Below are positions 7,247 through 39,963 of a DNA stretch of 64,000 bases, in pieces (the first letter of the stretch is position 1; every line of letters begins with the position of its first letter). The stretch is taken from assembly GCF_009914755.1 (NCBI RefSeq), contig NC_060929.1. The stretch is one strand, 5' to 3'. The position numbers and the translations under genes are program-made. The DNA is from the human T2T-CHM13v2.0 reference genome, Homo sapiens. The notes under the pieces are model-generated. The model was not told where the DNA came from. It searched no databases and was given only the letters and a program-made list of their open reading frames with translations.

Positions 7247-8038
7247 TCAAACTACATGAGAGCAGTCAGTTTTTCATGGACTGTGGCATATTCAAGATAA
7301 AATACAGTCTCTAAGACAGAGTAAATGCTCATTAATATTTATGAGATGATCAAATGAAGATTAAAAAAAGCCAAGGCTTATAGCGGATAAATAGCTTGTA
7401 CAAGGTCACATGGAGAGTGGTGTAGCTGGCAATTAGTTCAGGTGTGCAAGATTCCCAAAGTTTCAGCTCTCAGAGATAGTATGATGATCTTGTCCCCAGA
7501 TCATACCAGAATAAGTTTCAGCTATCTCTTTACTTTAGAAGGGAAATAAATGTGAAATTCAGCCTTAGATACTAATACTTCCATTAGTAGTATAAAGTGT
7601 CCTCCAATTCTACCTACAACACCTGCAAGAGCTTCTTCCAGAGTTTTCTCATAGTCACTCTATCTGAAACCTAGCCCATTCCAAAATCAGCACTTTTGTA
7701 GCCTTTATTAAAGAATTCAAATGACTCATGGTTTAATTAAGGAACAATTAAAACTTATTAAACCATGGCCAAAAGATTGCTGGCTTGTCTATTGCAAGTT
7801 ATTGTATGAAATGAAAAATGCCACTGATTATGTACGTAATTGTAGTTCAAAGCAAAGCTACCATCTCATTCTTCATCCATCAGCCTGGGTTTGGGGACTA
7901 GCTATTAAAATGGCATGTGCAATTACCTGTCTTTCACAAGAAAAGAATCCCCATGGCTCGCAGACATTTCTGACCTCTTTCTGGAGTTGTACTACTTAGA
8001 AATTGCTATTTCACAATTGAGGCAGGAATTCTTGAAAA

Positions 8039-8045
8039 TATATAA
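8039..8045 (+). promoter_or_regulatory. SPINK9: TATA box of SPINK9
   Basis: TATATAA 85 nt upstream of the ATG. Confidence 0.7.
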
Positions 8046-8123
8046 GGCAGGATCAAAGTGAGCTGGACGGACACCAGGTCACTTCTTTTCCCTACATCTG
8101 ACTGCCTTGGCCACTTCAGTACT

Positions 8124-8178
8124 ATGAGAGCAACAGCCATAGTCCTACTCTTGGCTCTGACACTTGCAACCATGTTCA
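8124..8178 (+). CDS. SPINK9: SPINK9 coding exon 1 (signal peptide MRATAIVLLLALTLATMF)
   Basis: ATG at 8124, hydrophobic leader, donor A|GTGAGT at 8179; phase 1. Confidence 0.96.
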
Positions 8179-8324
8179 GTGAGTATCTCTGATAATACTG
8201 CCCCTGCCCTTGTACTAATAGCTCATGCAGTCTTCTGCCTATGTAATTCTGGGATATATGTAATTCATCACATAAATAATAAGGGAAACTTTTTAAAATG
8301 AATCTTTTGCCTCAACCAACGAAT

Positions 8325-8600
8325 TGCTAAATCACATCACCTCAGGGGTAGAGTGGATGTTAACAGTCATCTAAAGTCAAATGCTTATTCATGAGAATAC
8401 TTTGTATAATTTTTTAGGGAGAGGATCATCCAGACTCTGCTTTGACTTGATGTCACCATTTACAGGGAACTCATTTATTCATAAAACATTACAATCAATT
8501 GTTTGGCACCATGGGCTATTCTTCTATTATTGAGTTAAAATTGGCCTCCCTAGAATTTTCAACCACTGTTCCAACATCTGTCATCTACACCTGTCCACAA
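8325..8600 (-). mobile_element. L3/CR1 fragment in SPINK9 intron 1
   Basis: ATCATCCAGACTCTGCTT...GGGAACTCA...TTATTGAGTTAAAATTGGCCTCCC, typical of the L3 3' region read antisense. Confidence 0.6.
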
Positions 8601-8931
8601 TAGCACATCTCCCTAAATATGACTCACTTATTTCTTCTGTCTCTACTGAGCTCTGGTTATGAAGTAAAAAAGATTAAGACAAAATTCTCATTCATCGTGG
8701 CATCTTTTCCATTTCTTTGACTAGATTCCACTCCCACTCCAAAAAAGAAAAAAAATTTAAAGATACGTGTGAAGAGCTTCAACCTTTGATACAATGCTGA
8801 TACACAGTTGTGAAGAGAGACTTACATTTTTATGACAGGCTGAAAGCTAAAGCATAAATCAAAGATTCTTTTTCTAGTAAGATTAGGTTCTTCCAGAGTT
8901 TAATATTGCCTTGTCTTTGTTTTTCTTCCAG

Positions 8932-8963
8932 GTATAGAATGTGCCAAACAGACGAAACAGATG
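8932..8963 (+). CDS. SPINK9: SPINK9 exon 2 (S-IECAKQTKQM)
   Basis: Acceptor TTTTTCTTCCAG, donor ATG|GTCAGT; 32 nt restores phase 0. Confidence 0.95.
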
Positions 8964-10987
8964 GTCAGTACACCCATCCTACTTTTATGTAATTTTAAAG
9001 TCAATATCAGTAAGGAAATATTTGATACTACACAGTAATTAAATTTCTATATGTTTGAATATTTACTTTATGTGTATGAAAACTGGTTTTATTTCAAAAA
9101 TTGTAGGCAGATCTTTCTAAAATGGAGAGAGTAGAACAAGGTGGTGAGACACTAGCAACAAATTTAGAAAGGCCTGGTCTTTAATTCCACGTTTTTGATC
9201 ACGTGGCCATGGGCAACATACTTATAACATTATTCCAAGACTTGAAGCCATAGTATTTGAAAAGAGCTTAGCACAGTGCCTGGCATAGAGTGAAACTCAA
9301 TAAGGGCAAGTCATGATTCTTATAATTTTTAAATGGGTCACACATATCTTTGTTCTCTGTCTTAGAAAATAAGGACTTTAATTTAGCCTTCCATTCATGA
9401 CTCAGGTTACAGTAATGAGTATTGTTGAAAAAATCTAGGTGTGGTAGCAAAAATCTTATTTGGTACTCAATTTGAGTTCCACTCTAAACTCTGTTGCTTA
9501 TTAACTGTGTGACACTGGGGCCTGGGAAATTTATTTTATGTCTTTGAGGCTTCTGTTTTACCTATTAAAGAAAATAATAGGGTTAAGGATATAAATTTTG
9601 GAGTCAGATGGGCCTGAGTTCAAGCCATCCTTCATGATTTAGTAGCTGTGAGAGGATGTAAAGGATTACTGAAAGTTACGAGCTTGGTAGTTTCCCATCA
9701 CATTGTTGAGTATCACATAAACTCTGTCTCCCTGGGATTTGAGCAGGCAAGAAGAGGAAGTGAAATCACGCTGGCATATACTTATCATCAGGCACTGCTG
9801 TTTCTATTCTGCTGCACTAGCCTCTAAGGTCCTCCTGCCATTATGCCATGCATACCTATCTTTGCATCAGCTCCACTAACCTTAGCCCGATAACAGGAGG
9901 TGTATGGAAGCTGATGAATGAATGAATGAATTAATTAATGAAGCACATCTGGAGGGAAGGAAGAATTCAACTTTAAGTTTGAGTATATTCCAAGCTATTC
10001 AAGTAGAGATAGTCCACAATTAATAAAATATCATGCCTAGACCTCTCAGACAAAACAAGCTGGAGATGCAGTCTTTTGTATACAGCTGGAGTTTGTGTAG
10101 ACCTGAAAGAGAAATCAAAAGATAAAAAATTGTGCCTATTATTCATTCAATATTTTCCATGCAATGTAGTGCTAAGCATTGTACACATATCTTTTCATTT
10201 ACATATTTTTTACTTCCACCCTACAATGTGGTTATTATCTTTATTTTACAGATAAAAAAACTAAAGTTTAGAGAGGTAAAAAAATTTTTACAGGGTCACA
10301 TAGAATTTGCATTCAGATGTGTTTGACTTTACTCTATATGCTCTTCTATATGCTCATAGATTTTTTAAAAAATATGAAAAACTTTTCTTGGGAATTGCCT
10401 ACCTACTTCCACAGGCTTTGCTCTAGGAATTTAGAACACTGGTTCCCAACTACAATATTAAGATATATTCATCTATGTGCTGGTGAAGTATATAACAAGT
10501 AAATTGTTACCAATAATTAGTAGTAAAAATCTGTCAGTAATGTACTAGTCATTAAAATGATAGTAGTTATCCCTACATTTCACACTTGCATTCATATTGA
10601 GCTTTTTCAGTGAAAGACAGAAATAGTAGGATAATTCCTACAGAAAATATATCACACTTCTGAGTACTCCCATGAGAATGGTTGCATTTGAGAATATGCC
10701 ATGTATTTTAAGAACTGATACATCAACCAGTATTGTGAGAAAAAAATCTATTTTTACATTAAGGTATGATTTGGGAACCAACTATGGTAAAGATGTTTAT
10801 CAGTCATGATTTTATATCTGACATAAAACATCTTTACATTTGAAATGTCTTGAAGGGGGTAGATGAGAACCAACAATTGTAATAAGAAACATGCATTGAG
10901 AGCCCTCTGAGCTTGCTTGAAAAATCCTAAATCCTGATAATAAAGATTTGGTTGAAAGAGTTGAAGGTTTTTAATATGTTTTTTCAG

Positions 10988-11115
10988 GTTGACTGCAGTC
11001 ATTATAAAAAGTTACCACCAGGACAACAGAGATTTTGTCATCATATGTATGATCCAATTTGTGGATCTGATGGCAAAACTTATAAAAATGATTGCTTCTT
11101 CTGTTCTAAAGTTAA
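10988..11115 (+). CDS. SPINK9: SPINK9 exon 3, Kazal domain core ([42 protein letters not shown])
   Basis: TTTTCAG acceptor, GTAAGT donor, Kazal signature C-x7-C-GSDG-x-TY-x-N-x-C-x2-C. Confidence 0.98.
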
Positions 11116-11304
11116 GTAAGTATTAAAATGTTTTCTTTTTCATATTTAAGGTAAAAGTATATATTAAGACAAATTAGAAGGTGTGATGTAGGGCCTAAGG
11201 AATATGTGAATCATATCATACTGTCTCTAACAAACAGAACCTTCCAGTTGGTAGAATTTGGGAGTCCCTGATATCACAATATCCCCACATATTCTGGAAG
11301 TAAG

Positions 11305-11495
11305 AGTGAATCAGAGAATTCTAAAATCTCCAAGTTGAAAGGAAATATATGGTCATCTAGTTCAACTTCCACTTGATAATCTATTGCTTAAACTTCCTCT
11401 ACAGAAAAGTTACCAAGTAGTCTCACAGTCCACCTGGATTATTTCCAGGGTCAAGGAGTATCCTCCCTCCTAAGCATCCCATCCACATCTGGTAG
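11305..11495 (-). mobile_element. L3/CR1 fragment in SPINK9 intron 3
   Basis: GTTGAAAGG...GGTCATCTAGTTCAAC motif. Confidence 0.55.
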
Positions 11496-12176
11496 AATGA
11501 GCCATGTTTTTGTTCAGCTTTAGCAACTAGGCTTGGATATGTTAGAGCCCCCTAATGCCTGGTACAAAGGGGATAATATCTGCAAAATCTGAAGAACTTT
11601 TTCTGTTTCAGAGTATTATATCTCAACAGAATATATGTTGGTGCTATAGTAAAAATTACACTTAAAAAATCAGGTAGCCAAAAGTAGTTTAAAGATTATA
11701 AACTAATCATCTCCAAGATATATTAACATTAGTTCAAAAATTATAAAATAATGAATGATATACTGGAATGTATAAAAACATATGGGTCATTTTAAATATT
11801 TTAAAAAATATAGATGAATTAGATGAAATACAAACGAGCATCTAACATATGTGGCATATTGTTCTGGTTCTTTTTTTAATAAAAGAAAAATAACAATTTT
11901 TATGAAAAGAGACTTCTAAATGTGTGTTTCCCTTAAATTAAAAAAAAATTAAAACATTTCTGTTTTCAGGGATATAAATTGTGATGTATTTGAGCATCAT
12001 CCTTATATAATCAGCACCAGTTTCAAAAATATTTCTAAATTGCAGTCACTCCTTTTAAAAACATCAATAAGCGGGGAAACTTGAATACATTTTTGGGATT
12101 CATTAGTGAAGTTTGGATGCTAATGAAATGCCTATGGGCTCAGCATTTCTCATTTGTTGCTATATTCTCTCCACAG

Positions 12177-12222
12177 GAAAACTGACGGCACACTTAAATT
12201 TGTACATTTTGGAAAATGTTAA
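12177..12222 (+). CDS. SPINK9: SPINK9 exon 4 (K-KTDGTLKFVHFGKC*)
   Basis: CTCTCCACAG acceptor; sixth Kazal Cys then TAA. Spliced CDS is 55+32+128+46=261 nt = 86 aa, matching the SPINK9/LEKTI-2 sequence as I recall it. Confidence 0.97.
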
Positions 12223-12340
12223 ATCTATCTTGTGAGTCCAAAATATCTTTTAATGCATCTATTCACAAGAGTCACATTTCTGTTCCCATATTATCTATGC
12301 CACATTGCCTACTCATCACCATATGTAGATTTCTTTGTAG

Positions 12341-12366
12341 AATAAAGCAGATATAAGGGAAATAAA
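12341..12366 (+). terminator. SPINK9: Tandem polyadenylation signals of SPINK9
   Basis: AATAAA at 12341-12346 and 12361-12366, followed by T/G-rich sequence. Confidence 0.75.
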
Positions 12367-13857
12367 TGTGCACCTGACTCTTTTTTTGGGGGGGAACTGA
12401 GTTGAATTTTCTAGATTTGTTTTTTACTTTTGGGTGCTGTCTAATAGATAATTTTAGGGAGAAAAAAAGGGCCAATTAAGACTAGTAATAGGAACTAGAA
12501 AATTAAAGGCCCTGAAGCTGATGCACTGTTCTTACCCAGGCTAGGAAAACACTCCATGTACATTACTCAGTTATTGAACATCCATGAAATGTGAACAGAT
12601 AAAGAGAGACCCTTCAGGCACAAGAATCAGAAAACACTGCTTTGCTAGATGTCTCTTGGGTTTAAGACACTGAGAATTGCTCTGGATTGGGACTGCTCTC
12701 CAACTGTTTCCTACCAGAGAATATGTTTGTAAAATGCGGCTGGTAAAAAAAAATGGTTGGTAAAGTTGTGCAATTTCTCACATATTAGTTGACGTCTCTG
12801 ATACTTTTCTTTCTTGAATGTTTGATCTCAGGTCTGAGACCTGAAATTTAGCTTATCCTACTATTATATCATAAGTTTCTTAAAGACCAGAGAATATGCC
12901 TTGTAAATCTTTGTAATCCATTTGTGCATATATTCAATCACAAGTATCTATTAAGGCCTACTTTGTCAGTGTCAGTGTTCTGCCTTGGAGAATACAATGT
13001 TGAGCAGAGTAGATATGGTCTCGCCACCTTGGAGTTTATATTCTGTGAAGAAATTTCCTATGCTTGGTACAGCATCTTGCATAAAACTGATATAGAAACA
13101 TGCTCAATAAATTTAATTGAAATTAAGCAACATTTTCATTAGATTATAACAGAGTCACCCATGAATTTAACATATGAAAACCTACCTATATATTATCTAT
13201 AAAGAGGGAGAAAAAGAAAATGTAGTCAATCCATTTTTGAGCTATGATCTGGTCTTGCAAATTCATCAGAGATTTAGGGAACAAGACTGTCTATCAGAAT
13301 GACCCATGTTAACCTCCACAGAATTCAGGTACAATGGTGTTTGTTGTTTCTTTTCTTTTCTTTCTATTTTACATTTTTTTTAAACTTTCGGAATGATGCA
13401 AGACCATCACTAACATTACTTAAAAACACTCTCTTTAAAATTTGTTGATTGGAATTTAGGGAGGGAAAAAAAGTGCTCTTCAAAGAAACTCTTTAAAGGA
13501 ATTAAAAATATTAACCTAGAATTTATTCATCCATCTTTTCACCAAATATTTATTAAATATTCACTCTGCCAGATGCTGCTAGAAATGAATCAGAGAGCAA
13601 ATAAATATAAACATTAGTCTTTTCTTCATGGAGCTTTAAGTATAGAGGGGAAGAACTATGTTAACAATACATCAATCTTAAATATACATATTTGAAAAAA
13701 CTAGACTTAGACTGGGTAATCAGGAAAGACTTCCCTGAGAAGGTAACTTATAAGCAGAAACCTGAAGGATGGATAGAAGTCAGCAAAAGAAAATGGTGGG
13801 CAAGAGCAGTGAGTTGGAGTTGGGGGAGGTTGGCCATGGGGTTGAGAAATGAGAAGC

Positions 13858-14790: not shown

Positions 14791-16159
14791 TAACTAAGTT
14801 AAATTAAAATGAATTGAATTTGGCTTCTGTCAACAAGTAAGCAAGGAAACCATGATGTCTTTTCCCAGATAACTCTGAAGTCAAGTGTCTTCACTCCCGA
14901 TCCAGCTCCAACATTAGAATATATATCTATTTGCATTCTGCATCAACCCAAACTCTGCTTCTTCAAGCTCCCTATAAAGAATCCACAAACATACAAACAA
15001 TAGAGAGCAATAAATGCTTTTCTGGAGATTGTGGAAGAGTCATCAAAATGGCCATTACCTTGCACAGCCCACAGCCCAAGATTCCTTATTACATTGCTTT
15101 CATCTCTTGCAAAACCACCTCGTAAAATCCTTGTCATTTGTAACATGAAAAAAATTACCATAAATTTTTAAAGATATACAAATAAAATAAGATGAAAACA
15201 ATTAAATAATTACCAAAACCTGTTGCTAGAACTGAAGCCTACACAAATTCTAAGAAATCTCATTTTGTTTCATTTTTAATTAGCTCTTCCTCACATTTAA
15301 GCAAACCACACATTACTATATCCAATAAACCAGTCCTTGTAAAACAGGTAACTCATGTCTGTCAGAGAACAATTTTAAGCTAAAGTATTGACTTTGGAAT
15401 GTTGATTAACAATAAGGGTGCAGATCAAGGAGATGGAATCCAGAGTTATAAATATGTTCCTTAACAAAACACATCCACATGGACACATTCTGGAAATATT
15501 TCAGAACTTCCTTTAAAAATAACTCTAAATCCAAACACAGCAGTCAATAAAAAATTAAGCTTTTTAAGAGCACCTGCTTAAAAATAGGAAAAAGGTTACT
15601 GGAGTTCTGTGAGATGCTTCTGGAGAGTTCAGGAAACTGGTGCATCACTCCCAGTTGCCAGACTCGAAGTGCTCCTTTCTAGGACATGAGGCATTTCATG
15701 CTCACAAATAGGTGTGGAAGTTAAAACAACTGAGGCCCCACCCAGCCAAGCCCTGCATGACTAATCAAAGAGTAAGCCTGGCTTTGGGTTTCTTTCTATC
15801 CTTGTGCCCAGTTTCTGAATCTTATTCTGCCTGCCCGTGAAACCCCTGGTGACTGCTGCATCCCCAGCCTGAGCCCCTGACTCTGTAATGTGCCCAGGAG
15901 CCTAGTCCTCTGGTACTTTGCACCTCTAGGTTGTGCTCCTTGCTTCTCTCTTCTCCACTTTACTACTTCTAGAATGGCAGCCCAGTGGCAAACACTCTTA
16001 AAACACTGGCCACCCTACTTCTGTTTTGGCTGCCTGTCTGGGCTCCAGTTGTTTCTTATACATCTCTGAGGCCCACCAATTGCTTGAACTACCATCTGTT
16101 TGCTGCCACACCCTTTAGATATTAACTTGTCCTCCCTGTGAAACTAAAATTATTTGTGA

Positions 16160-20339: not shown

Positions 20340-23300
20340 ATAATATTCCACAGGAATTATTTCCAATGATTCATTATTTTAAACCTGTTCTAGTGCCATG
20401 ATCGGGGAAACAGTCATTTCTTAATAGAGATGACACATCTAACTAGGACATAATTCAAGCCTTTAATGGGCTAGGTTAATAACAGCAGGTTACTTCTTTT
20501 GCCTCCACCTTTAGCCACTTTCAGCATCATAGAAGCAATAATCTCTCTTGATCCTACCACTTTGATTTATCTTCTGAACTGAGAACCTGAGTCCAAGAAA
20601 TTCTAAGATTCTTTCATCTCAAAAATAAGCAAGTCTATTTTGTTTTTGTTTTTGTTATGCATTTTTCTCTCTCCATCAAGAAATCACTGAATCACACTGT
20701 CTCAGGAGTGGAGTGGAGCATAAAGCTCATCTAACCCAACTTCTTACTGTATAAGAAAGTTTCCTGTGGGATCCCTGAAGGTGATCACAATCCAATCTCT
20801 GCTTTGATGCAACAACTCTCTTGTCAAAACAACAACAACAACAACAAAAAAAAAACCCAGCCCATTATTGACCCGTTTGTTTACAGAATATTCTTACTTT
20901 ATTGAGTAGAAATCAACGTTGATTCAACTCATCATCTGTGACTGACACAAGATTTTAAAGGTTTAAAAATATATCATGCTTTTATCCATTCCATATTTAT
21001 TGAGTACTAAATATGGTCTGGCATTATTTACTAAACTCATCTCTCATGATGATGATGGTCACTTTCCCAGGCCAAGGCCCTTTTTCCTGTGTTCTATTCT
21101 CCCCTCAACCTCTCTCAAAGAGCAACCATAGCATTCCCACACTTGCTGAGCGAATCAACCCTGATAATTATTTTAATTCAAAGCCTTGAAGAGAACCCTA
21201 TTTCAGTGGCACAGACTAATAACTGAAGCAAATAACCATATTTTTTTCAAAAAATGGTTTTTATTTTATTCTAGATGTAAAACGTGTGTCCCAGAGAAAA
21301 TGGTCATTCCACAACATGTAGTATATATTATTTTTATGTAATCTAAAAGTTGGGGTAAATTTTTCCATCTCAAAAATCAAAAGCCCTTTCATATATTTTT
21401 CAACATGTAAAATACATGATTTAGAGTCACCTATCAGAAATATATTTGATATGCCATATAATTTTGTTATGTAGCTAATATTTACCCATTTGAATATCAA
21501 AGCTGGTTTCACTGAAAGTATTTTAGATTCAAATCATTATTAAATGAAGTTAATAGAACATAGTAGCCATACATGTACTGGCTTTAGAGTCAGGCAAAAT
21601 TCTGTTGATTCCCAGCTTTGTCACAATGTGGCTAGAATAAATGACTTTTTCTGGACTTCAGTCTCCTCATTTACAAAATGAAAATAATTATAATACCTGC
21701 CTCAATGGATTGCTAGGAGCTTAAATGCCATAAGTCTTACAAAGAGCTCAACATAGCCCTTTGCACATTGTAAAAATTCTAGGAGGGCTCCCATATTAGG
21801 CCATTCTTGCATTGCTATAAAGAAATACTTGAGACTGGGTAATTTGTAAACAAAAGAAGTTTAATTGGCTCATGATTCTACAGCCTATATAGGAAGCATG
21901 GTGCTGGCATCTGCCTGGCTTCTGGTGAAGCCTCAGGGAGATTTCAGTCATGGTGGAAGGCAAAGCGGGAGCAGAAACATCACATGGTGAAAGTAGAAGT
22001 AAAGGACTGGCGGTGCCACACACTTTTAAAGGACCAGAACTTGTGTCAACTCAGAGCAAGAGCTCACTTATCACTAAGAGCTCACTTATCACTAAGATGG
22101 CCCAAACCATTCATGGGAGATCTGCCCCCATGATCCAAACACATCCCAGCAGGCTTCACCTCCAAGACTGGGGATTACATTTCAACATGAGATTTGGGTG
22201 GGGACAAATACCCAAATTATAGCAACTACCTTGTATTATTACAAAATGGTCATATATGTCTTTACTTACCCATCAAGGGATGAAGAACATGATTTAGCCT
22301 TTCTATTTTGATTCATTGTGAAAATTGTTAATATATTTTAGACAATTCTCATATAAGGCAATAAAAACTTTCAATTAGTGGGCAAGCAACCTAAGCATCA
22401 CACTTAGTTGTCTTTGAGGCTGAGACTTGTAAGTAAAACAGTATAAAATAAGCATACAAATCAAGATTATTGACTTTAAAGTCATAGGGTTGGGCTCAAG
22501 TAATAGGTTCATCAATTAACAGCTATATGATCCTGAAAATTTTACTTAACTTTTCTGTTTTGGTTTCCTTTTCTTTAGGAAAATGTATAGTATTTACCTC
22601 AAAGGATTACAAGAGTTAAGCAGTAACCACATGTAGGGTTTTCAGAGGGCTCCTGGTAGCTGGCCAGTGTTGGATAAATGTCAGCTATTGCCATTTTGTT
22701 TTCCCAAGATGCATGCGTTCTGTAAAAGAAGTGGCAGAGGAGTGTTTGTGAAATGATGAGTAAGTTGGTTTTGAACAATAAGTAGGAGTTTTTTTTCTAA
22801 GCAAGCAATGAGAGGCTGCAAATCGTAGGGATTAAAGTACTTTACCTTGAATTGGGAGCAGTGAGAATTTGACTGGAACTAAAATGAAGTATTTGTCTGA
22901 GGGTTGTGGGTACAGGTTTGGTAGTGGGACTCAAGAGCTCTCCTAGCGCTATGAAGAGCCCTGAGGTAGCTTGGGGTAGTGAAGACCACTCCACAGTGTT
23001 GGAAAAGTCAGCCTCCATCTTGCAGCCACAGCAGCATACATATTGTTAATAGGGAGTTTCTAGCAGGCCTGTGCTTGAGAAAAATTTCTTTCCAGACAGA
23101 AGTAGTAAAAATAATGATAGAAAATACATATAGTCCTTTTTTACATGACAACTACTATTCTAAGTGCTTAATTCATATAAATGCATTTAATGTTCAAAAC
23201 AACTATATGAGGTAGGTACTATTCCCCCATTTTACCTAAGGAAAAGGTCACATAAAGGTTAAGCAATTTGCCCAAGTTTAGGTGAGATTTGAAACCAAAA

Positions 23301-25545
23301 ATTTAGCAGCACAGTCTCTACTTTTAAACACTACACCATACTGCTTCTGCATAGTAGTGAGGTGAAGAGATGCTGAGAAATAAAAAAAGAAAGGAGAGGA
23401 GAGGGCAGCTCTCTGCTGAGTTATGGAGGATGGAGGATGGGTAGAATGAGGAGAGAGAGCAAAGGAGAAAAGTTAGGATATATTTGGAAATTATAATGTG
23501 GATCTAAATAAAATTAGTCAACAGGAGAAAAAAGCAGGGCATGGAAGATTGGAGATAAATTTCAGAAACAGAACTTAAAAAGAGTTGGCAAACTATTTAT
23601 ATGCATGATTAGGAGAACTTAAATATTTAGGATGGTGTTGATGTTTTTGGTTTGGACCATTGCTTACACGATAACGTTATTACTTCTCAGTCAGTTTTCT
23701 ATAAAACTAGGTGCAGAATTTGTTGTCCTTAATGTGTTCCAACCCTTCCTACTTAATGTGCAATGCTGCCTTACATTGTGCAAGAGATTTTGTCATTCTT
23801 GTCTCCACTAGAGTCTGTGGTGGTATTTGGCCAGCATTGTGTCTTATATAATCTCAGAACCCTTCCCAGTGCCTTAAAAACAATAGGGTCACAACATGTA
23901 GAAGAATAAGTAAGTGGTAGGAGCAGGTTGAGAGGAGGAAGACGAATTAAATTTTGGACACCTTAAGTCTGCAGATACTGCAAGATACTCAAGTAGAGAT
24001 GTTTGGCAATTGATTAGAAATTCAGAGTAGGTACTCTGGGATAGTAAAAAATACTGATGGAAATTTTGTAATCATCTGGGTGGATAACTTAAGACAAAAC
24101 TAAATATAATGACTAAAATTTAGCCCTTACTGTTTGTAACACACTATACCAATCCTAAACATGTTTGATTTCTTTTATTATTCCTCACTACAAATACATG
24201 AGATAGATGTGATTAGATCCACATTTTATAAAGAACAAGAGCTTTGAGAAGGTTAGCAATTCACAGAGATTTGCCTCTTTCATTTATCTCATAGGAGGTA
24301 GATAAGACAGGATTTTTTGTACTTACAGTCTGACAGATTTAATTGAAAAATCCAAATCCCTGAAATTAATAATAGCTCAGAACAGTTAATATCCATCATT
24401 TAAAAATATAAAAATATCTTCTTAGAAGAAGCTGTCACTAACAGTGGTAATTTACAAAAGATGACAAACCTATAGGCAAAATCTATTCCAAAAATTAACA
24501 TTTTTGCTCCAAAGTTAAATATATAAAGGGCTTATTTCCTATACTTAAGTTTTAAAGTAAACTTCATTTCAGAGATTTCTTTTAGAATTTAATGTGTCAT
24601 ATGGTCCCTCTAAGGAATAGTATTCTGCTGATGTACAGCAGGTTTAGAAAAATTATGTTGTTTTTCTCATAGCACACGCTGGTTACTAAGATGAGCCAGA
24701 GGATCATAAAATATCCTCTCATCAAATCTATTGCTTCAATTCTTTCCCCAGGAAGCCCACCAAGTTGTCTACCAGGCCACATTACATACTTCTAGTGACA
24801 GGAAACTCACTTTGTCTGTTTGCACAACACATTCCTGAACAGCTCTGACAGCTAGAAAGAGCTCAGATTTTTTGTTCTTATACGTTAAAAATTAGCAAAT
24901 GGTTTAAATGTTTTGCTAAACCTAAGACACTTTCCTTGTGCTAGAAGCCTCAAAGGTGGATATGAAGGATTTATGATATAGACTGAAATTGTCTAATACT
25001 TTCAAAGTGATCATCTCAAAAGACACATTAATACTATATCAAAAAGTTAATAAAATTACAGTCAAATCTGAAGAAGTACATATCCTTCATTTTAATTATT
25101 TGCAAGACATAATATTTGTGAAGAAAAACAAGCATAAAATTTATCTGGCAGTTTATTCAGATCCTCTCACCCTCTACCTACCCCCTGAGAAAACACTAAT
25201 AATCTAGAATAAAAGGAAGCTTCTAAGCTATTTTGATCACCTTGAAAATAAAAATTAATAAAAATGACAAAAGTTATTAATTAAAAGATATTTCTATTTA
25301 ATACATTACATCAGTCGCTAAGATATTATTGGGCTGCAGTCCTTTCCATTAAAATTGACAAGTTGCAAGGAGTCTTCTGAGTCATAATGGTCAAGTGTAA
25401 TGCTAAGAAAATGCTTACAGGCTTAGTATTCAGCATTTGTCTTTCTTTTCATGAAGCACATATTAATGCATGTAAGTGTTTACAAATGGGAAGGTAAAGA
25501 GGTTCTAAAATGTCTTACAGTGCATTCTGAGCACAAGAGGCAATT
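20340..25545 (+). pseudogene. Unprocessed SPINK9-like pseudogene psi-A (four exon remnants)
   Basis: Exon 1 ~20482-20586 (ATG->ATA at 20529). Exon 2 21275-21302 with AG/GT kept. 3' half of exon 3 at 24475-24518 (GKIYSKN*HFCSKV). Exon 4 ~25457-25497, preceded by a 31/41-nt match to SPINK9 intron 3. Intronic L3/L2/MIR fossils are collinear with SPINK9. Confidence 0.85.
21793..22224. mobile_element. MaLR solo LTR (MSTA/MSTB-like)
   Basis: TATTAGGCCATTCTTGCATTGCTATAAAGAAATAC...TTTCAACATGAGATTTGGGTGGGGACAAATACCCAAATTATAGCA. Confidence 0.85.
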
Positions 25546-27361
25546 ATTTTCCAGGAAAAGGATGCTTTTTTAAGTAAAAGGCTTAAAAATTATTTTTTAA
25601 GTAAGATGCTTTTTAAGTAATTGCACTTAAAGGAAATTCTTTTGAAGTAAAATGCTTAATTTTAAGCACTGCTTAATTTTATTTTTAAATAAAATGGAAC
25701 TTAAGGAAATTCTTTCTAAAAATTTTGGTATGGAATTATATCTTTTGGATTTACTTTAGTCATAAATAATGGCTAATAGCCTCTTTCTGCCAGAAATTTC
25801 CCTCTTGGCGAATCATGGGAATCAGTAGCTCAAGAGCCCAAAACATGCTTTTTTCTAACCCAGGCCATGGAAATAAACCCTATGGTTTGCTTGCTTTGTG
25901 TAGATTCTTTACTGAAACCTGAAAAAAATAAAGGAAAATGTTTCATAAATAAGAAGATTGCAGCCTCAACTTCTGATAACCAGAAAATGTACTTTTACCA
26001 GCAGCAGCTGACATCCCCTGAAGTATGGCATAGAGAACTGCCCTAGATTAGGATTCTGACTCTTCCTAACCTCCCAAGTGGATTGGTCTGAAGTGTAGAG
26101 AAAGAGAATCAACATAAAGTCATGCATGTTCCATTGGGTCATTTTTTTTTTATCTTTCCACTACTTTTTAAAATTTTTGATCCCTAAGACCAGGTCTGAA
26201 ATTTGTCTTACACCCCTAGTTGGATACATAATTTTTGGAGATCAATGAAGGTGCCTTGATCATCCTTAAAACTCTTTCATATATTAATCATCAAACAAAA
26301 AATCATTCAATTCCTAAATACATGGTATGGTGCTGACATCTGGGGATAAAACAATGAACAGCATCGACATTATTTCTGCCCTTACTGAGTTTTCTTTGTA
26401 GTTGAGAAGATATGATGTACTTGGAAGATATAACCTAAATACAATTCCTTACATTTAATTGCCAATCGATAAATACTTTTGAATGAACAATAACTGAGTT
26501 TGAGCAGCATTTTCATTGTGTTACTTCTTACTTGAAAATTTCCAATGGCTACTCTTTAGGAATTCAAAGAAACATAAAGTGTTCCTGACTTTATGGAACT
26601 TGCATTTGGGAGACAGGTCATTTGCAAAAAGAAAGAAATAATACCAAAATCCAGAGGATAAATACAAAATAACAGATTCTACATATCACAGGAGATCAGA
26701 GGATGAAACAATCACTAGCCAGGAACACTGGGAGAATGCTTTCGGAAGACATAGGCCTTACCCTGTAAATGTGACTGAAGACTGCTTCCCCATCCTTCAG
26801 CTAGAACCTCTTCTTTGATGACTTATTTGCTCACTCTCCTCCAACAATATTTGCTGTCTCAATTTTTGATACCACTACTATACTAAATGTTATATATTTT
26901 TCTGTTATTTGCCACATTGAAATGTAATTGTCTGCTGATAAGCAAAACTCCACTACTGGAGTATGGACCTCTTGAAAAGTGGAATTGCATCTAAATTATC
27001 TCCTGCTCCCGTGGCCTAACATAGAATGTAAACAAACTTAGAGGTCACATTTAATAAACACGTGTTGAACAAATGTTAAAGATTATTCTAGAAGACACAC
27101 TCTGAAATCACCACAGGATATCACTGGACCCAGCCATGTATTCAATAGCCTGATAAAATAGTTCATCTTCCTTCCATAATGGGTTCCTAAACACTTGATG
27201 ATGGGGTTAAAGAAATAAATGTTAGTGAGTTGCCAAAAAAAAAAAAAAACAAACACTGAGAGTGTAACTGTTACTTGATTACTCCACAGGCAAAAAAAAT
27301 ATTAGGGTCCTTAATGAGATGAGGTCTCCAGAAGTAAGGTAGGACTAATAAAAAATAAAAG

Positions 27362-30105: not shown

Positions 30106-30440
30106 TAGTTGGCCCTTTATATCCATGGGTTCCACATCCATGGACTCAACCAATTGCATATCAAAAATATTTGGAAAAATAAAAGATGATTATATCTGTA
30201 CTAAACATGTATAGATTATTTTGTTTTTATTCCTTAAACAATATAGTATAATATTTACATTGCATTTACAATGTATTAGGTATTATAAGTAATCTAGAGA
30301 TGTTTTAAAGTATATGGGAAGATGTGTGTAGATTATATGCAAATATTACACCATTTTATAGAAGGGACTTGGGCATCTGTGATTTGGGTATCTGTGGGGA
30401 ATCCTGGAACCAATTCCCCATGGACACTGAGAGACAACAG
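30106..30440. mobile_element. Tigger3-type DNA transposon (non-autonomous)
   Basis: TA-flanked; TAGTTGGCCCTTTATATCCATGGG...CCCCATGGACACTGAGAGACAACAG terminal inverted repeats. Confidence 0.8.
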
Positions 30441-31044
30441 TATTTCTAGCGTGTGTTTTACTACCTTGAATTACTAAAAGGTAATTTAATAATCGACATG
30501 GAATCTCTTGCTTGAATATAATGGGAGTATGGGGATTTGGCTGATATTACCAGGTCACCTCTTTTGAATCCACCTTACCACCATGGTCACCTCAACGCAA
30601 GAGAGTGGCATTTGCCTCCTGTCCCTTTCTCTTTGCCTTTGCCTCTGCCTCTGTCTTCAGTGTATATCTCCCTTCCACCATTGTCATTACCCTTCCCAAG
30701 GCAACAGCAGTCCCTTGAATACCTTCTGTCCACAGAGTTTAGAGATACTGTCGTCTCACAGATGGGTGAGTATACTTTTCAGCTGGAGGGAATTTTGGAA
30801 ATTCATTTCTATGACTATTGAGAAATCTTGAATCATAGAATCACAGCGTCTGAAAAAAGACTATGTAAAGACCTTCTGCTTCAACTTTTCACTCATAAAG
30901 AAATCTTATTCCACATCTTTGAGAGATCATCATTCACCTTTTGCTTCTGTCGCAATAGCCCTGAAGACGAGGTATTAAGGCCTCCATAAGGCAGCTTGTT
31001 TTAATTGTTAGGCATCTTGAGTGTTCAGAAAATCATTCCTTCAA

Positions 31045-31122
31045 GACACCGTGGCTTGCGCCTATAATCTCAGCTACCTGAAAGAGTAGGTGGGAGGACT
31101 GCTTGAGGCCAGGAGTTTGAGA
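31045..31122 (+). mobile_element. Alu monomer fragment (FLAM-like)
   Basis: GTGGCTTGCGCCTATAATCTCAGCTAC...GAGGCCAGGAGTTTGAGA. Confidence 0.6.
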
Positions 31123-31748
31123 AAATTGCTTATTCACTTAATCTTTTAACCCATATAATGTGTCAGGCATTGGGCTAAGAGCCTAAGATGCAATGATAAA
31201 TAGAATAGTCTGTATCTTCAATGAACTCTTTCTGTTGAACCAAAATGCTAAATAATATAGTAAAGTTGGCAAGCTCTGGAGTCAGATTTCCTAGGTTTGA
31301 ATTCCACTGATAACATTTGTTATCACTGTGGCCTTGAGAGAACAATTTAACCATTTTTGCCTCAATCTTCTCATCTGTGTATTGGAGATACTTATATTAA
31401 TAGTAACTACTAACAGAGTTTTTATGAGAAATAATGTAAATGTTAGCTATTTGTCCTAATCTGTGCCTGGAGACCAAAAATGAGCTTTTTATTCTACTTG
31501 AAGGCCCTAAGGAGCTGAAAGACACCTCATGTCTTCCTAAATATTTTCATCTCCATAGTAAATTATCCCAGTTCTTTTATCCATTCATGAGACTTAGTGC
31601 CCAGATCCATCAACATCTTGATCTCCCTAGAGCTTCACTCCAGGTGTAGCATTGGAACTACTCCAAATTTGGTCTGATTGGAGAGTATTTTCCTAACTGG
31701 TCTAGACATTATGCCTTAGAATTTTTTTTTTTGGTTTAGTAGTTGTTC

Positions 31749-34335
<2,587 letters not shown>

Positions 34336-34640
34336 TATATTATATATATGCAGTCTGAGTCATACTCAGAATCTACCAAATAAGAATCTTGAGATTGCTG
34401 GAGCAGAATTAGAAGGCAAACATGTAAATTTTGAAAACCTTTCCCAGAATTACTCATACTAAGTTAATCTTTTTCACATTTGTTTCTTGCAAGAAAAAGC
34501 AGAATGTACTTCCATAGAACTGAATAATAATCAAACCATCAAACAAAACAATGTTAAATCACGCTGTCATACCACAGCGCTACAGCCTGTTAAGGATGAA
34601 ATATTTTCCCCTGGAAGCCTTCTTGGTCTTTGATGGCCTG

Positions 34641-35103
34641 ATGCTATGGTATTGATGTGACTTGTCCCCACCAAAATTCACATTCAAATTTGACCCCCTT
34701 TGTGGTGGTATCGGGAGGTATGGCCTAATGGGAGATGTTTGGATCATTAGAGTGGATACCTTATTAATAGATGAATGCCCTCTCTCAGGAATGGATGAAT
34801 TCTAGATCTCCTGGGAATGGATTAGTTCCCTCAAGCTAGTTATTAAAAAATCTGACTTCCGCAACTTCTCTCACTTGCTGTCTCCCTCAACATGTAATCT
34901 CTTTGCACAAGTTCACTCTCCTTCCATTTTCCACCATGAGTGAACACAGACTGAGGCTCTCCCCAGAAGTCAAGTAAATGCCAGCACATGCCTCTTGAAC
35001 TTGCCAACCTGTAGAACTGTCAGCTAAATAAATCTCTTTCTTTAAAAATTTATAAACCCAACCTCAGGTATTCAGTTATAGCAACACAGAGCAGACTAAG
35101 ACA
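34641..35103. mobile_element. MaLR solo LTR (MSTC/MSTD-like)
   Basis: TGCTATGG...GTCCCCACCAAAATTCAC...GTTATAGCAACACAGAGCAGACTAAGACA. Confidence 0.8.
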
Positions 35104-36937
35104 ACTGGTGACTTTGTCCTAAGTGCCACATGTAAATAGATCATTTGCCAAGTGACTTCATAATGGGGTCTGAGGTTCTCACAATAGAACCGTAGTCTTA
35201 GATTCAGCAAGAGAACTCAGCCTTTAGGAATTTGCTAGAAAACTCTGGACTAAAAAAACTCAGGTGGATGAATCACTTTGTTCCTTATGGAAAAGATGGA
35301 AACATTCGTCATGGTTATCTTGGCTACTGGCTATTTTTCATGTAAGGATTTGTTAAAGAAACTTGGGGAAAGAATAAACATTTGATATTCCAGGGGAAGT
35401 AACAAGCTAACAATAACTGCTTTCTAGATGTTGTAATTTTCGAAACTTTGAGACTTTTCTCAGAGATGAAAAATTCTCTATCTTAAATAGAGTAACTATC
35501 AGCGGTTTAATCCATTTTTAATATTCCAAGAATTCTGCCAAAGATAGCTTCAGAATTGAGATATCTTAAGGAATGATCTATGAAAGTTGTACTCAATATC
35601 TGACTAATAATTTGGCCTTCTAAATTCATAATCAATTTTGGTTCTGCTCCCTCTTTTTCCTAATTATTTGCCATCATACTCTCACACACACTGGTATTTT
35701 GTTGTTAGCCTGTACACAGAAATGCATTCTATGCAAACCAGTGTCAGTTTTTTACATGGCTTACTATTAGGACACCACCAGATGTTATCAAATTCCAAGA
35801 CAGCACTCGACTTTTTCTAATTAACTCCAACAAAATGGCACCAATAAGGTAAGCCCATGTAAGACTCGATCTGCTAGCTGAATGGTGCAGGTTGAATGAG
35901 GAAGCAAGGAGAAAGCTCATCTGCAGTAGCTGAAAGAAGTCAGGGCTCTCAAGTAAAACATCAAATATGAAGGTTAAATACAGTGTTAATAGTTTGGGTA
36001 AACAGATTTTGACACAGAGGTCCCCAGCAAAAGAGGCTTCCTTGTATGCCAGTTGAATTTAGAGAAGGGGTACATTCAAGATGCAATAATCTGAAAACAA
36101 AAGCAGGTATCTAAGATTTCTGTCAGTAAATAACCAAGATGACTATGAAGAATGAAACCTTTCTCTAAAATGAGACTGCATGATGTTTGAACAGCTCAGC
36201 AATGGATGATACTGCTGAGCCCCAGAGGATAATGCTTGGGTTTAAATACCCCCTGCCTAAGGTCAACATTAAACCTAGGAACAGGATAAGGTTGAATTCC
36301 CAGGTAAGACATTAGATGTCTCAGTAGGACATTAAGAAGAAGGAGGAAACAGTGTTTGGGTAACAGAAGACATGGCCAGATATTTTTGTGTGTGAAGAAG
36401 CCACTTATTTTTTCATGACTTTCATGGTTATTAATTTATCTGTGATTACTTAATAGGGCTAGTTAGCTATACACATTTCAACACTGCATTGTTTAATATT
36501 TTATTCTAAACATTTTTATTTCAGATATTTTTGGTAACAATCCTTTTAAGATAAGTTTTCCACTTTCTGCCTAAGAATAATTTTTTTAATCTTAGCCTTA
36601 TAGAATTTCTATTAGGTTGAACATACAAAACTGCGAATATCTGACCGTTTTCAGTCTACATAATGGCAATTTCATATGGCTCAATTTAAATACCTCTGTC
36701 AAAATAGGTCCTGAGAAAATCAGGACACATCTCTGACTCTTACTGCTTCTGCATTCCCTTAGATACCACTGGCAATTCAAGCTCCTAATTTTTGTTTTTT
36801 AATGTATTTTCTTTCCTCTTTGTAACTTCAATACTTTTGCCTAGGTTAAATCCTCCTTGTTACTTGCCCATAGTGTTGTGATATGCATCTAGTGCATCTA
36901 GATACCATCTAGTGGTTTCCTTGCATTTAGTCTGATT

Positions 36938-37132
36938 CAGGAGTTGGCAAACTATTGCCACCTGTTTTTGAAAATACAGTTTCTTGGAACACAGGCACAC
37001 TTTGTTTATATGTTATCTATGGCCATTTTCAAGCTGGTACAGAGCTGGGTTGTTGCAACAGAGGCCAAATGACCTAAAAATTATAAAACATTTACTACCT
37101 GGCTCTTAACAGGAAAAGTTTGCTAACTCCTG
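36938..37132. mobile_element. MER58A-like hAT MITE
   Basis: TIRs CAGGAGTTGGCAAACT / AGTTTGCTAACTCCTG. Confidence 0.8.
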
Positions 37133-39963
37133 CTCTAATCTCTATAACCTTGAGAATGGACTTTCTAAAATCCAAATCTCATTGAGACTTCTCCTTATTT
37201 AAAACAATGACTCTCAGTATTCTCAGGATACATTTTTTGTATGTTTTACAATACCCCCCAACTTAACCCAGCCTCTTTCTACCTAAAAGGATAACTTCCT
37301 TAATAGTTAAACTATTTTGGAGTTCATGCTATTCCAGTTTTGTGTCTTGGTGCATATAATTCCCTCTAATTAAATATCCTTCTTTCTATATACATATTCA
37401 ATTTTCAAAGTCATGTGCATCTCTTAAAAGCCCAGTAAAGCATCTAGTCTTTGGTAAAGTCTTTCCAAGTCTATATCATGTAGGCTAAATCACTAAAACA
37501 GGAGATAAGAGACATACACTGTTTCTCCAAAGAATGATTTGAGTACCTTCTGATAGTATTAATAATAATTTTAGTTAATAGGCCAATGAATCTCTTTCAT
37601 TTCAATAATTGCAGCTGTTCTTTCATCTGTTAGAAAAAATATGTTTACAACTTCAAACCCAAGATATCATGGACATTCACATTTAGGACAAATCTAAGAT
37701 TGGTAGGCAAATTTAATAAGTGAGCCAATTTAAAGCAAAATATTTGTAAAGAAAAATGACACACGAATTTTGAAGGAATCATAAACCAAGTTACTGAAGT
37801 TTGGGAAACACTGCTGTGATGAGAGGCAGTGAAGTCTTACAGCCTGATATACTGGATAAATGGACACACTGTAATCTGAATCACTAGAGTAGGAGACTGT
37901 GGCAGCTCATTCCTAATCTCGTTATATAATAATTACAAACTTTCCAAGCCTCCTCCCATCCACAGAAAAATAATTCTAATATTCAAGGTCCTCTAACTCT
38001 GGTGATACTGAGAAAAGCAAAATAAAATGGGAAGATTTAGGAAAACATAAACCTGGTAGCTTATTATTCCAGAATCCTAATCCCCAGAGGACTAAAGTAC
38101 ACTCAAAGCTAGAGTGGGACCACAAAACACATCCTTTTCCAGGCACCACAGTTAAAAGGGGGAATTTGATGAACCAAAATGATTCCAGAGGAACATGGAC
38201 AGTGCTTATAGTAATTCCCAGACAGTAGTTATAGTCATTTTTCTCATTTCTCAGAATGGTTTCTTTTTATTCTAACAAATTGTAGATATGCGTTACACAA
38301 CCAAGGACCTGGGCTGTACAGCCTCAGTTACCCCACAAGATAGAAACCCCAGCAACCCCAAAGGCTCTGGTTGCTGAACTTAAGATAATATAGTTTTGAT
38401 GCTTGAGGTTTAAAAGATATTTTATCATTATCTCCTCTCTACATAAAGTAAAACACCAGAACACTTATATTAGAAGCCATTAACAGATCATTGCAGGATA
38501 CAAAGTTTGACCTGTGAGTTTCGTTTTAGGTCCGTCAGTGCAGTCATTATCAAAAGAAGTTTACACAACAGAAACATATATGCTCCATGAAAGTCAGCCC
38601 ATTATGTGCATCTAATAACATTATTAATCCTAATTCCTGAGTGTACTGCTTCCTAATATGTAAATGAAAACATGAAACCAAAAATAGAACCCTCTTTTGA
38701 GAATTTAACATGTAACTGACTGCAATCAACTATTTACTGTTTTGGAAAATGTATGTGAATTCCTCAAAATGTGATTCTGTAAACTAAAAAGAAAAAAAAA
38801 GTCACTGAAATCTCAGTTCCACTCACTGAACCTGAGGGAATAGGGGGACAGGCAGTAAATAAACGGGACTTCGAATTCCATCTCCAACTTTAGAAGAGAA
38901 GCCTCCCTTTATCTGTTTTAAACATTAATTTCAACATGGGATTCCATGAAAAAAAAAAAAAAGGTTCTTTTCCTAAAATGTAAATCACAGCTGTAGGAAA
39001 CATTACTTTTTTCAAGATAAGACTAAAATAATAGGTTTCAGCACTTGAGGTCAAAAGCCCTTGGGTTGAATCCTGCTCCTGTGTTTGAGTGATATTGGGA
39101 AGTCTCATAATGCTTCCAAACCTCAAGTTGTCATCTATAAATCTGGAATATTTGGAATGATATTTACTGCTTCACTTGCTACATATGCTCCATCCACATT
39201 ATTGACTCTTCTTTTCCGATATTTTCAAACCTGGAAAGCTCTTTCCTGCTTCAGAAACTTTGGGCAATCTGTCTTCTCCTACAAGAATGTTTTCCCATCC
39301 ACTTCACAGGGCTAATTCTTCTTCATCATTTGGATTTCAGTCTAAATATAACTTCCCACGGATGGATTCCCTGACCATTCTATCTAAAATATATTCACCT
39401 CTGATATTTTTTATGTTAATTTATTTCTATTTCCTTTGTAATACTTGTCATAATGACCATATATTTTAATTTTCTGTTTATTTTTGGTCTATCACCCAAT
39501 GTAAGCTCCATGAAGTCAGAAGGCAGGTTTCTGATTAATTCCTAGCACTTAACACAGTATCTGCACCAAGTAAGACCTCAACAAGTACATTTTGAATGAA
39601 TGAATAATTCAAAGGGTTCTTGGGCAGAATGAATGTGATAGTGGATATAAAACATATTTGTAAACCTAAATCACCCTTTATAGGTAATTTTTTTAAAAAA
39701 ATTCACTACTTATTTTGGCTCAAACTCTCTGAATGGAATGTGGGTTTAAGAATGAAGACTCTGATCCTATAGAACTAGATTGGGACCTCAGCTCTTCTGC
39801 TTAAACTTATGTGACTTAGGGCAGAAAACATAATCTCAGTCATTATCTTAGAGGTTGGCTATGAGGATTGAAAAAGATAATGGATCAAGAGGGCTTAGCA
39901 TAATCCCTGTCACATAGCAAGCCCTTAGTAAATAACAGATGACTGACCTTTGTTGCTACTAAC

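What the first reader, a model, noticed from the sequence alone, without database searches (positions are those of the whole stretch)
20340..25545. Hidden decayed SPINK9 paralogue (psi-A) with all four exons in order
Seen, compared with SPINK9: exon 1 GCCACTTTCAGCATC-ATA-GAAGCAA vs GCCACTTCAGTACT-ATG-AGAGCAA (start lost at 20529). Exon 2 TTCTAG|ATGTAAAACGTGTGTCCCAGAGAAAATG|GTCATT (21275-21302; 28 nt vs 32 nt, Cys->Arg). Exon 3 3' half is a gap-free 44-nt match, GKIYSKN*HFCSKV vs [14 protein letters not shown] (24475-24518), with donor GT->AT; its 5' half appears deleted. Exon 4 follows a 31/41 identity (25400-25440 vs 12117-12157) and ends KCLQMGR* vs KFVHFGKC*, with a matching 3'UTR. It is invisible to the ORF track. 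Inference: a lost Kazal inhibitor gene; I do not recall an annotation for it, but cannot verify that.
Basis: partly seen in the sequence, partly recalled or inferred. Interest (0 to 1): 0.85.

Follow-up and report, generated by a model that had tools for sequence, protein, structure and literature searches.

The report
Decayed tandem copy of SPINK9
About 12 kb downstream of the human skin protease-inhibitor gene SPINK9 lies an old, thoroughly broken duplicate of the whole gene, which is an ordinary gene fossil that records how this inhibitor cluster grew and shrank.

Summary
SPINK9 (window 8071-13140) aligns collinearly with 20482-26517 through exons, introns and the 3' flank. The chain has 17 HSPs and scores 642 bits, against 72-184 for 20 shuffles. 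It is the best place in the window, and SPINK9 is by far the best partner among five human SPINK loci.

- ATG is ATA at 20529-31.
- Exon 2 is 28 nt with its AG/GT kept and a Cys codon changed to Arg.
- Exon 3 has a 29/44-nt ungapped 3' match with a stop and a GT-to-AT donor.
- The 31/41 match lies before exon 4.
- The final Cys codon is lost.

One correction is needed. The 5' part of exon 3 is scrambled, not simply deleted (87 vs 109 nt).

Exonic and non-exonic columns are equally diverged (70.0% vs 69.3% identity, K2P about 0.39-0.40). The copy is therefore an unprocessed pseudogene that has drifted neutrally for a long time. I infer that the duplication is about as old as placental mammals. 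RefSeq lists nothing here, and GENCODE could not be checked. Orthology to rodent Spink10/11/12 could not be tested. Two further Kazal relics flank the pair. The feature is genuine but ordinary, so interest is low to moderate.

The parts
20386..20481 (+). Promoter-proximal relic upstream of the exon-1 relic
   Evidence: It aligns to the second relic (30454-30576, E 5e-6). The three-way alignment with SPINK9 shows a shared TATA-like ATATAA/ACATAA block and a shared CAGGTYACYTCTTTT block at the SPINK9 transcription start.
20482..20578 (+). Exon-1 relic (5'UTR plus signal-peptide part). ATG is ATA at 20529-20531, and the donor-equivalent GT is CT at 20579-20580 (this last from a weak alignment).
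   Evidence: 8071-8133 vs 20482-20538 is 44/64 identical, and 0/300 and 0/500 shuffles reach the score. ATG vs ATA is printed. The donor reading comes from the global alignment and is inferred.
21275..21302 (+). Exon-2 relic, 28 nt against 32 nt (frameshift). AG and GT are kept, and the Cys codon TGT has become CGT.
   Evidence: 0/500 mononucleotide shuffles reach the score.
21794..22227 (.). Interspersed repeat of about 430 bp inserted in the intron-2 relic and absent from SPINK9 intron 2
   Evidence: The whole-genome DNA search lists 39 other copies at 76-79% identity. This repeat also explains the significant hits of psi-A to the SPINK7 and SPINK14 loci.
24426..24518 (+). Exon-3 relic (Kazal core). 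It has three in-frame TAA stops, a 12-nt loss where C-G-S-D would be, one Cys codon turned into TAA, and a donor changed from GT to AT at 24519-20.
   Evidence: Translation. The 3' 44 nt are 29/44 identical without gaps. tblastn with SPINK9 gives E 0.02 in the 64-kb window. The gapped match to a marsupial relative shows the 4-residue gap. DNA significance alone is weak, 28/500 shuffles.
25457..25542 (+). Exon-4 relic with the start of the 3'UTR relic. The acceptor AG is kept. A 2-nt gap shifts the frame, the final Cys codon is missing, and a stop is retained.
   Evidence: It is part of the 624-column HSP 11675-12274 vs 24979-25542, E 4e-16. Alignment, frames.
25815..26517 (+). Homology to the SPINK9 3' flank, which marks the end of the duplicated unit
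   Evidence: HSPs 12488-12626, 12809-12940 (E 3e-6) and 13114-13140 continue the chain.
8069..12362 (+). SPINK9, the intact sister copy, given for reference
   Evidence: Annotation supplied with the finding. The CDS translates to 86 aa. Kazal_1 scores 48 bits on exon 3.

Best explanation
Window 20386-26517 is an unprocessed pseudogene. An ancient tandem duplication, with a period of about 12.4 kb, copied the whole SPINK9 unit: promoter, four exons, three introns and about 0.8 kb of 3' flank. One copy stayed the working Kazal inhibitor SPINK9. The other lost its start codon, its reading frame, two splice donors and most of its cysteine codons, and has since drifted as neutral DNA. It now lies, antisense, inside an intron of FBXO38-DT and most likely does nothing.

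Shown: the homology, its extent, the lesions, and the equal divergence of exons and non-exons.

Inferred: the mechanism of duplication, the age (around or before the placental radiation), early loss of function, and present lack of function.
For: - Collinear chain through exons and introns. It scores 642 bits, against 72-184 for 20 shuffles and 178 for the reversed subject. It is the best of 62 sliding windows.
- SPINK9 is the specific sister. The chain scores 594 with SPINK9, against 52-251 with the SPINK7, SPINK13, SPINK6 and SPINK14 loci, the upstream interval and the second relic. The few significant hits to SPINK7 and SPINK14 lie in an inserted repeat.
- Introns are retained, so it is not a retrocopy.
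- Identity is 70.0% over 213 exonic columns and 69.3% over 1629 non-exonic columns, K2P 0.389 vs 0.398. Only 1954 of 5070 SPINK9-unit bases are alignable.
- The stretch is single-copy in the genome, with 1 match, itself.
- There is no Rfam family, and no ORF of 60 aa or more lies on the relic exons.
Against: - Exons 3 and 4 are individually weak. 28/500 and 8/500 shuffles reach their scores.
- The exon-3 read-through matches no Pfam family.
- Equal exon and intron divergence is only soft evidence for early death. SPINK9 protein itself evolves fast (human exon 3 is 72-76% identical to sloth, bat and colugo orthologues), so a once-constrained copy could look similar.
- Transcription, chromatin state and conservation in other mammals were not testable, so a non-coding role is not excluded.
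- The age rests on recalled neutral-rate figures and not on a computed calibration.
Confidence: 0.9

Rival explanations
1. Unitary pseudogene of recent death. The copy was a working second inhibitor gene for most of mammalian history, is still intact in other mammals (for example as one of the rodent genes Spink10, Spink11 or Spink12), and was lost only on the primate or human line.
For: - The duplication is old enough to have been inherited by other placental orders (K2P about 0.40; the dating is inferred).
- A paper states that mouse Spink10 has no known human orthologue and that Spink12 is only a putative orthologue of SPINK9 (passages of PMC10291479).
- Some mammals carry two annotated SPINK9-type proteins. 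For example, armadillo has two whose listed longest contig has the same length.
- The exon-2 relic reads V-K-R-V-S-Q-R-K. This is nearer to the V-E-C-V-K-Q-R-K of many non-primate orthologues than to the human I-E-C-A-K-Q-T-K.
Against: - Exons are no better preserved than introns.
- Every exon carries several independent lesions.
- Neither profile search returned a mouse or rat protein (best 120 of 434 hits listed; best 120 of 135), so the comparison could not be made.
- No protein in hand is closer to the relic than human SPINK9 and its orthologues. The best scores are 25.0 and 24.6 bits.
- The tree placement is unresolved.
Confidence: 0.12
2. Chance resemblance of AT-rich, low-complexity DNA, with no true homology.
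For: Individual exon matches are short and about 60-70% identical. Exon 3 alone is reached by 28/500 shuffles. One tblastn hit in the same region (24802-24912, exon-1-like) did turn out to be chance.
Against: The chain of 17 ordered HSPs has seven with E<1e-3 and a best E of 4e-16. It far exceeds the shuffled, reversed and other-window controls. Exons fall where the intron anchors predict them.
Confidence: 0.01
3. The coding function is dead, but the stretch has been re-used as a regulatory element or as part of a non-coding transcript.
For: It lies inside the FBXO38-DT transcription unit (annotation supplied with the finding). The promoter-proximal block is the best-kept part shared by all three copies.
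Against: No annotated exon or functional element lies in 20340-26517 (supplied table). There is no Rfam match. Divergence equals that of surrounding non-exonic DNA.
Confidence: 0.05

Closest known systems
SPINK9 (LEKTI-2), the adjacent intact gene at window 8069-12362
   Same: It has the same four-exon layout, the same order, splice-site positions and promoter/5'UTR block, alignable introns and an alignable 3' flank.
   Different: The copy has no start codon. It has frameshifts in exons 2 and 4, three stops in exon 3, and two lost donors. At most 2-3 of 7 Cys codons are kept, and a 430-bp repeat is inserted in intron 2.
Unprocessed (duplicated) pseudogenes in tandem gene clusters
   Same: It arose by tandem copying with introns and promoter, was disabled by point lesions and small indels, and decays neutrally beside the parent.
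   Different: It is much more decayed than most catalogued examples. It is below the reach of protein-profile detection, which probably explains why RefSeq does not list it.
Rodent Spink10 / Spink11 / Spink12. These names come from papers, and no sequences could be obtained.
   Same: They are single-Kazal genes of the same family. One paper says Spink10 lacks a known human orthologue (PMC10291479, passages). That they lie in the same cluster is recalled only.
   Different: Orthology is untested. No mouse or rat protein was returned.
Two other Kazal relics near SPINK9: upstream at L003:3728-3859 and downstream at window 30415-38664
   Same: They are broken Kazal exon-3 relics on the same strand in the SPINK7-FBXO38 interval.
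   Different: Their introns no longer align with SPINK9 or psi-A, so they are older or come from other branches of the family. Their exon 3 is better kept than that of psi-A (Kazal_1 27.6 and 15.5 bits, against none).

Membership tests
Unprocessed (duplicated) pseudogene | Homology to a parent gene across exons and introns, in the same order and orientation | tested here: met
   The chain runs from 8071-13140 to 20482-26517 and scores 642 bits, against 184 or less in shuffles. All four exons are located.
Unprocessed (duplicated) pseudogene | Disabling lesions in the coding frame or splice signals | tested here: met
   ATG is ATA. Exon 2 is 4 nt shorter. Exon 3 has three TAA stops. The exon-3 donor is AT instead of GT. 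Exon 4 has a 2-nt gap.
Unprocessed (duplicated) pseudogene | Not a retrocopy: introns present, no poly(A) tract at the end of the homology | tested here: met
   Intron HSPs have E values from 1e-4 down to 4e-16, and homology continues past the SPINK9 3' end to 13140/26517.
Unprocessed (duplicated) pseudogene | Neutral evolution (no excess conservation of exons) | tested here: met
   Identity is 70.0% over 213 exonic columns and 69.3% over 1629 non-exonic columns.
Unprocessed (duplicated) pseudogene | No functional product (not transcribed or translated) | not testable with these tools
   No expression data are on hand.
Kazal-type inhibitor domain (Pfam PF00050 / PF07648) | Profile match above the curated cut-off | tested here: not met
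   The exon-3 read-through matches 0 families at E<=10. SPINK9 exon 3 scores 48 bits in the same call. The relic is not among 85 genome matches to Kazal_1.
Kazal-type inhibitor domain (Pfam PF00050 / PF07648) | Six conserved cysteines (this pattern is recalled from general knowledge of the family) | tested here: not met
   One TGT at 24433-35 and the TGC of HFC remain. The others are CGT, deleted, TAA or missing.
Unitary pseudogene (orthologue intact in other species) | An intact gene at the syntenic position in another mammal | not testable with these tools
   No mammalian genome other than the window's own is held. Protein searches gave no decisive relative.

The most novel reading that the evidence does not exclude
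SPINK9 may be the sole human survivor of an ancestral placental array of at least four SPINK9-like Kazal genes between SPINK7 and FBXO38. The other members would be the upstream relic, psi-A and psi-B. Some of them would still work in other mammals, possibly as the rodent epididymal/skin genes Spink10-12 that are said to lack human orthologues. The relics would then date a primate-lineage loss of secreted protease inhibitors.
Probability: 0.3. Interest if true: 0.4.

Novelty: new member of a known kind. Interest (0 to 1): 0.25.

Why it matters
It adds a dated birth-and-death event to the 5q32 SPINK cluster, whose members control kallikrein proteolysis in skin and mucosa. It also gives candidate human counterparts for rodent Spink genes said to have no human orthologue. 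It shows that relics below protein-profile sensitivity can still be recovered through intron collinearity with a neighbour. No phenotype or new mechanism follows from it.

Tried and rejected
- **Exon-1-like hit inside the intron-3 relic.** A tblastn hit at 24802-24912 came from 2 of 121 proteins whose models read through the 5'UTR. It has no DNA support: 105/300 and 99/300 shuffles reach the score. I treat it as chance.
- **Search of 1.84 billion representatives with the SPINK9 profile**. It was of no use for orthology.
- **Profile searches for rodent paralogues**. No mouse or rat protein was listed. Only a wombat 'SPINK12-like' protein appeared.
- **Direct search with the psi-A read-through.** I did not pursue it.
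- **Protein tree with psi-A and psi-B exon-3 read-throughs**. psi-A fills only 27% of the kept columns, and no well-supported set holds either relic. Placement is unresolved.
- **First K2P script**. It used a greedy chain that dropped the longest HSP. One search replaces it.
- **'psi-B exon 4' at 41772-41813**. It lies in 41158-41806, which matches L003:68-726 at 63% over 668 columns. That looks like a shared repeat, so I do not accept it.
- **Possible third downstream relic at 46470-46706.** tblastn gives about 23 bits and Pfam gives 0 families. Not supported.
- **Literature**. None of the listed titles or the passages read describes a SPINK9 pseudogene, and 'SPINK9P' occurs in 0 papers. Wapenaar et al. 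2007 (PMC1914236) is not held.
Full report
**Observation.** I read both regions and compared the SPINK9 locus with the whole window using a sensitive blastn (word 7, +1/-1). Apart from Alu-type repeat hits upstream of the gene, the hits on the + strand form one ordered series from 8071->20482 to 13140->26517.

A dynamic-programming chain of these HSPs scores 642 bits with 17 members. The terminal members, at 7521 and 13350, are weak and I do not count them as part of the unit. Seven HSPs have E<1e-3. They are:
- 8290-8445 -> 20649-20807
- 8994-9151 -> 21420-21573
- 9463-9578 -> 21575-21688
- 9970-10125 -> 23960-24109
- 11378-11453 -> 24725-24800
- 11675-12274 -> 24979-25542 (E 4e-16)
- 12809-12940 -> 26164-26290

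Twenty mononucleotide shuffles of the subject give chains of 72-184 (mean 118), and the reversed subject gives 178. Among 62 sliding 6.5-kb windows on both strands, the six best (265-523) all overlap this place. The best unrelated window scores 194 and the median is 115. The homology is therefore real and covers promoter, exons, introns and about 0.8 kb of 3' flank.

All are present.
- Exon 1: 8071-8133 vs 20482-20538 is 44/64 identical, with ATG opposite ATA at 20529-31.
- Exon 2: 21275-21302 is 28 nt against 32. The AG and GT flanks are intact and TGT has become CGT.
- Exon 3: 24475-24518 matches 11072-11115 without gaps at 29/44 nt. It reads GKIYSKN*HFCSKV, and the donor GTAAGT has become ATATAT.
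- 25400-25440 vs 12117-12157 is 31/41.
- Exon 4 keeps its acceptor AG. It has a 2-nt gap and a 3-nt gap that removes the last Cys codon, and it ends ...KCLQMGR*. The alignment runs on into the 3'UTR to 25542.

Within the intervals delimited by intron anchors, the numbers of 500 mononucleotide shuffles reaching the observed score are 0 for exon 1, 0 for exon 2, 28 for exon 3 and 8 for exon 4. Context-preserving swaps give 2, 1, 29 and 12. Exons 3 and 4 are convincing only because they sit where the chain predicts.

One correction is needed. The 5' part of exon 3 is not a clean deletion. The interval between anchors is 87 nt against 109 nt. The single frame 24427-24519 reads RSCH*QW*FTKDDKPIGKIYSKN*HFCSKVK. 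It therefore keeps an R-x-C-H, a P-I, a 4-codon gap where C-G-S-D would be (gapped tblastn match), three TAA stops, and one Cys codon turned into TAA.

**What it is.** SPINK9 is the specific sister of this stretch. The chain of psi-A against SPINK9 scores 594 (reversed control 151). The scores against other loci, with reversed controls in brackets, are:
- SPINK7 locus: 205 (100)
- SPINK13 locus: 194 (105)
- SPINK6 locus: 158 (114)
- SPINK14 locus: 251 (137)
- second downstream relic: 201 (75)
- interval upstream of SPINK9: 52 (48)

The significant HSPs to the SPINK7 and SPINK14 loci fall in 21777-22206. This is an interspersed repeat of about 430 bp with 39 other listed copies in the genome at 76-79% identity. 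It is inserted in the intron-2 relic and is absent from SPINK9. One further HSP to the SPINK7 locus (21597-21681, E 4.5e-4) and two to the SPINK6 locus lie outside that repeat and were not explained.

The 1.3 kb around exons 3-4 is single-copy in the genome. Introns are retained, so this is not a retrocopy. No Rfam family matches. Of the two ORFs of 60 aa or more in the span, neither covers a relic exon. At the protein level the relic is beyond recognition. Pfam gives 0 families at E<=10 for the exon-3 read-through, whereas SPINK9 exon 3 scores 48 bits in the same call. A Kazal_1 scan of the whole genome (85 matches listed) contains SPINK9 and SPINK7 exon 3 but not this place.

**How it came about and its age.** Over the chain, 213 exonic columns are 70.0% identical (K2P 0.389) and 1629 non-exonic columns are 69.3% identical (K2P 0.398). 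Only 1954 of 5070 bases of the SPINK9 unit align at all. Equal divergence means that the copy has not been under coding constraint for most of its life. This is soft evidence, because SPINK9 protein itself evolves quickly.

About 40% alignable sequence at about 69% identity resembles human-mouse neutral DNA. From recalled figures (about 0.17 substitutions per site on the human line since that split), two copies both evolving on the human line would need somewhat longer than that split to reach K of about 0.4. I therefore infer a duplication in stem or early placental mammals. This was not computed against a calibration.

SPINK9 orthologues are annotated in Xenarthra, Afrotheria, bats, carnivores, ungulates, Glires and primates. 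Marsupials have several paralogues of their own. A protein tree including the exon-3 read-throughs could not place psi-A, which fills only 27% of the columns and sits in no well-supported set.

The three-way alignment of promoter and exon 1 shows a shared TATA-like block and a shared start-site block in SPINK9, psi-A and psi-B. The ATG is lost in both relics.

**Orthology to genes of other mammals.** A paper states that mouse Spink12 is the putative orthologue of SPINK9 and that Spink10 has no known human orthologue (PMC10291479, passages seen). A 2026 review lists SPINK10-12 as human 'SPINK-like' genes without evidence (PMC13639018, passages seen). The RefSeq table supplied for this window shows no such gene here.

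I could not obtain rodent Spink10-12 sequences. The profile searches listed the best 120 of 434 hits and the best 120 of 135 hits, with no mouse or rat entry. The representative search returned unnamed multi-Kazal proteins. Among 147 small Kazal proteins in hand, 130 hit the psi-A exon-3 relic. The best hits are an opossum paralogue (25.0 bits) and human SPINK9 (24.6 bits), so nothing stands out. Whether any mammal keeps this copy intact is therefore open.

**Known or new.** The annotation supplied with the finding has no gene or pseudogene in 12363-51223 on either strand apart from the FBXO38-DT intron. Seven literature searches turned up no listed title or read passage describing a SPINK9 pseudogene. 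Wapenaar et al. 2007, the paper that described the cluster, is not held. GENCODE and pseudogene tracks could not be consulted, and supplements were not examined. I rate the stretch as a new member of a known kind, if it is indeed unannotated.

**Verdict.** It is an ordinary, very decayed duplicated pseudogene. Its value is as a marker of birth-and-death evolution in the SPINK cluster, together with the two other relics noted in passing. Confidence in the main reading is 0.9 and interest is 0.25.

Noticed in passing
window 30415-30670 and 38530-38664: A second, older Kazal relic ('psi-B') on the + strand. Its promoter and exon 1 align to SPINK9 (7948-8189, E 9e-6; 81/124 identical, 0/300 shuffles) and to psi-A. 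Its exon-3 relic reads CSHYQKKFTQQKHICSMKVSPLCASNNIINPNS*VYCFLICK (tblastn E 3e-4; Kazal_1 15.5 bits, below the cut-off). Introns no longer align. A large masked repeat (31712-33905) lies between the two parts..
   Followed up: partly
L003:3728-3859 (chr5:148,856,728-148,856,859, about 5.2 kb before the window start): A third Kazal exon-3 relic lies between SPINK7 and SPINK9, inside the first intron of the long SPINK9 isoform. It has one stop and scores 27.6 bits on Kazal_1, above the cut-off. 145 of 147 small Kazal proteins hit it..
   Followed up: partly
window 21794-22227: An interspersed repeat of about 430 bp in the intron-2 relic of psi-A. 39 other genome copies are listed at 76-79% identity. 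The family was not identified.
   Followed up: no
window 46470-46706: A weak Kazal-like frame (PICDSCT*PFKKCAIFC...) is hit by 24 proteins at about 23 bits, but Pfam gives 0 families. It is probably chance.
   Followed up: partly
window 15586-15708: The tail of a colobine monkey 'hypothetical protein' (P0004) matches this non-coding stretch at 88% over 41 residues with one stop. The monkey gene model seems to have joined SPINK9 exon 3 to a spurious downstream exon.
   Followed up: no
L003:5261-5395: The alternative coding first exon of the long SPINK9 isoform (the N-terminus of the 107-aa protein P0003) lies about 3.7 kb before the window. It is also present in New World monkey models.
   Followed up: no
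window 25560-25690: Just after the exon-4 relic there is a run of imperfect repeats of a TTTTAAGTAA-like unit (seen). It was not analysed.
   Followed up: no
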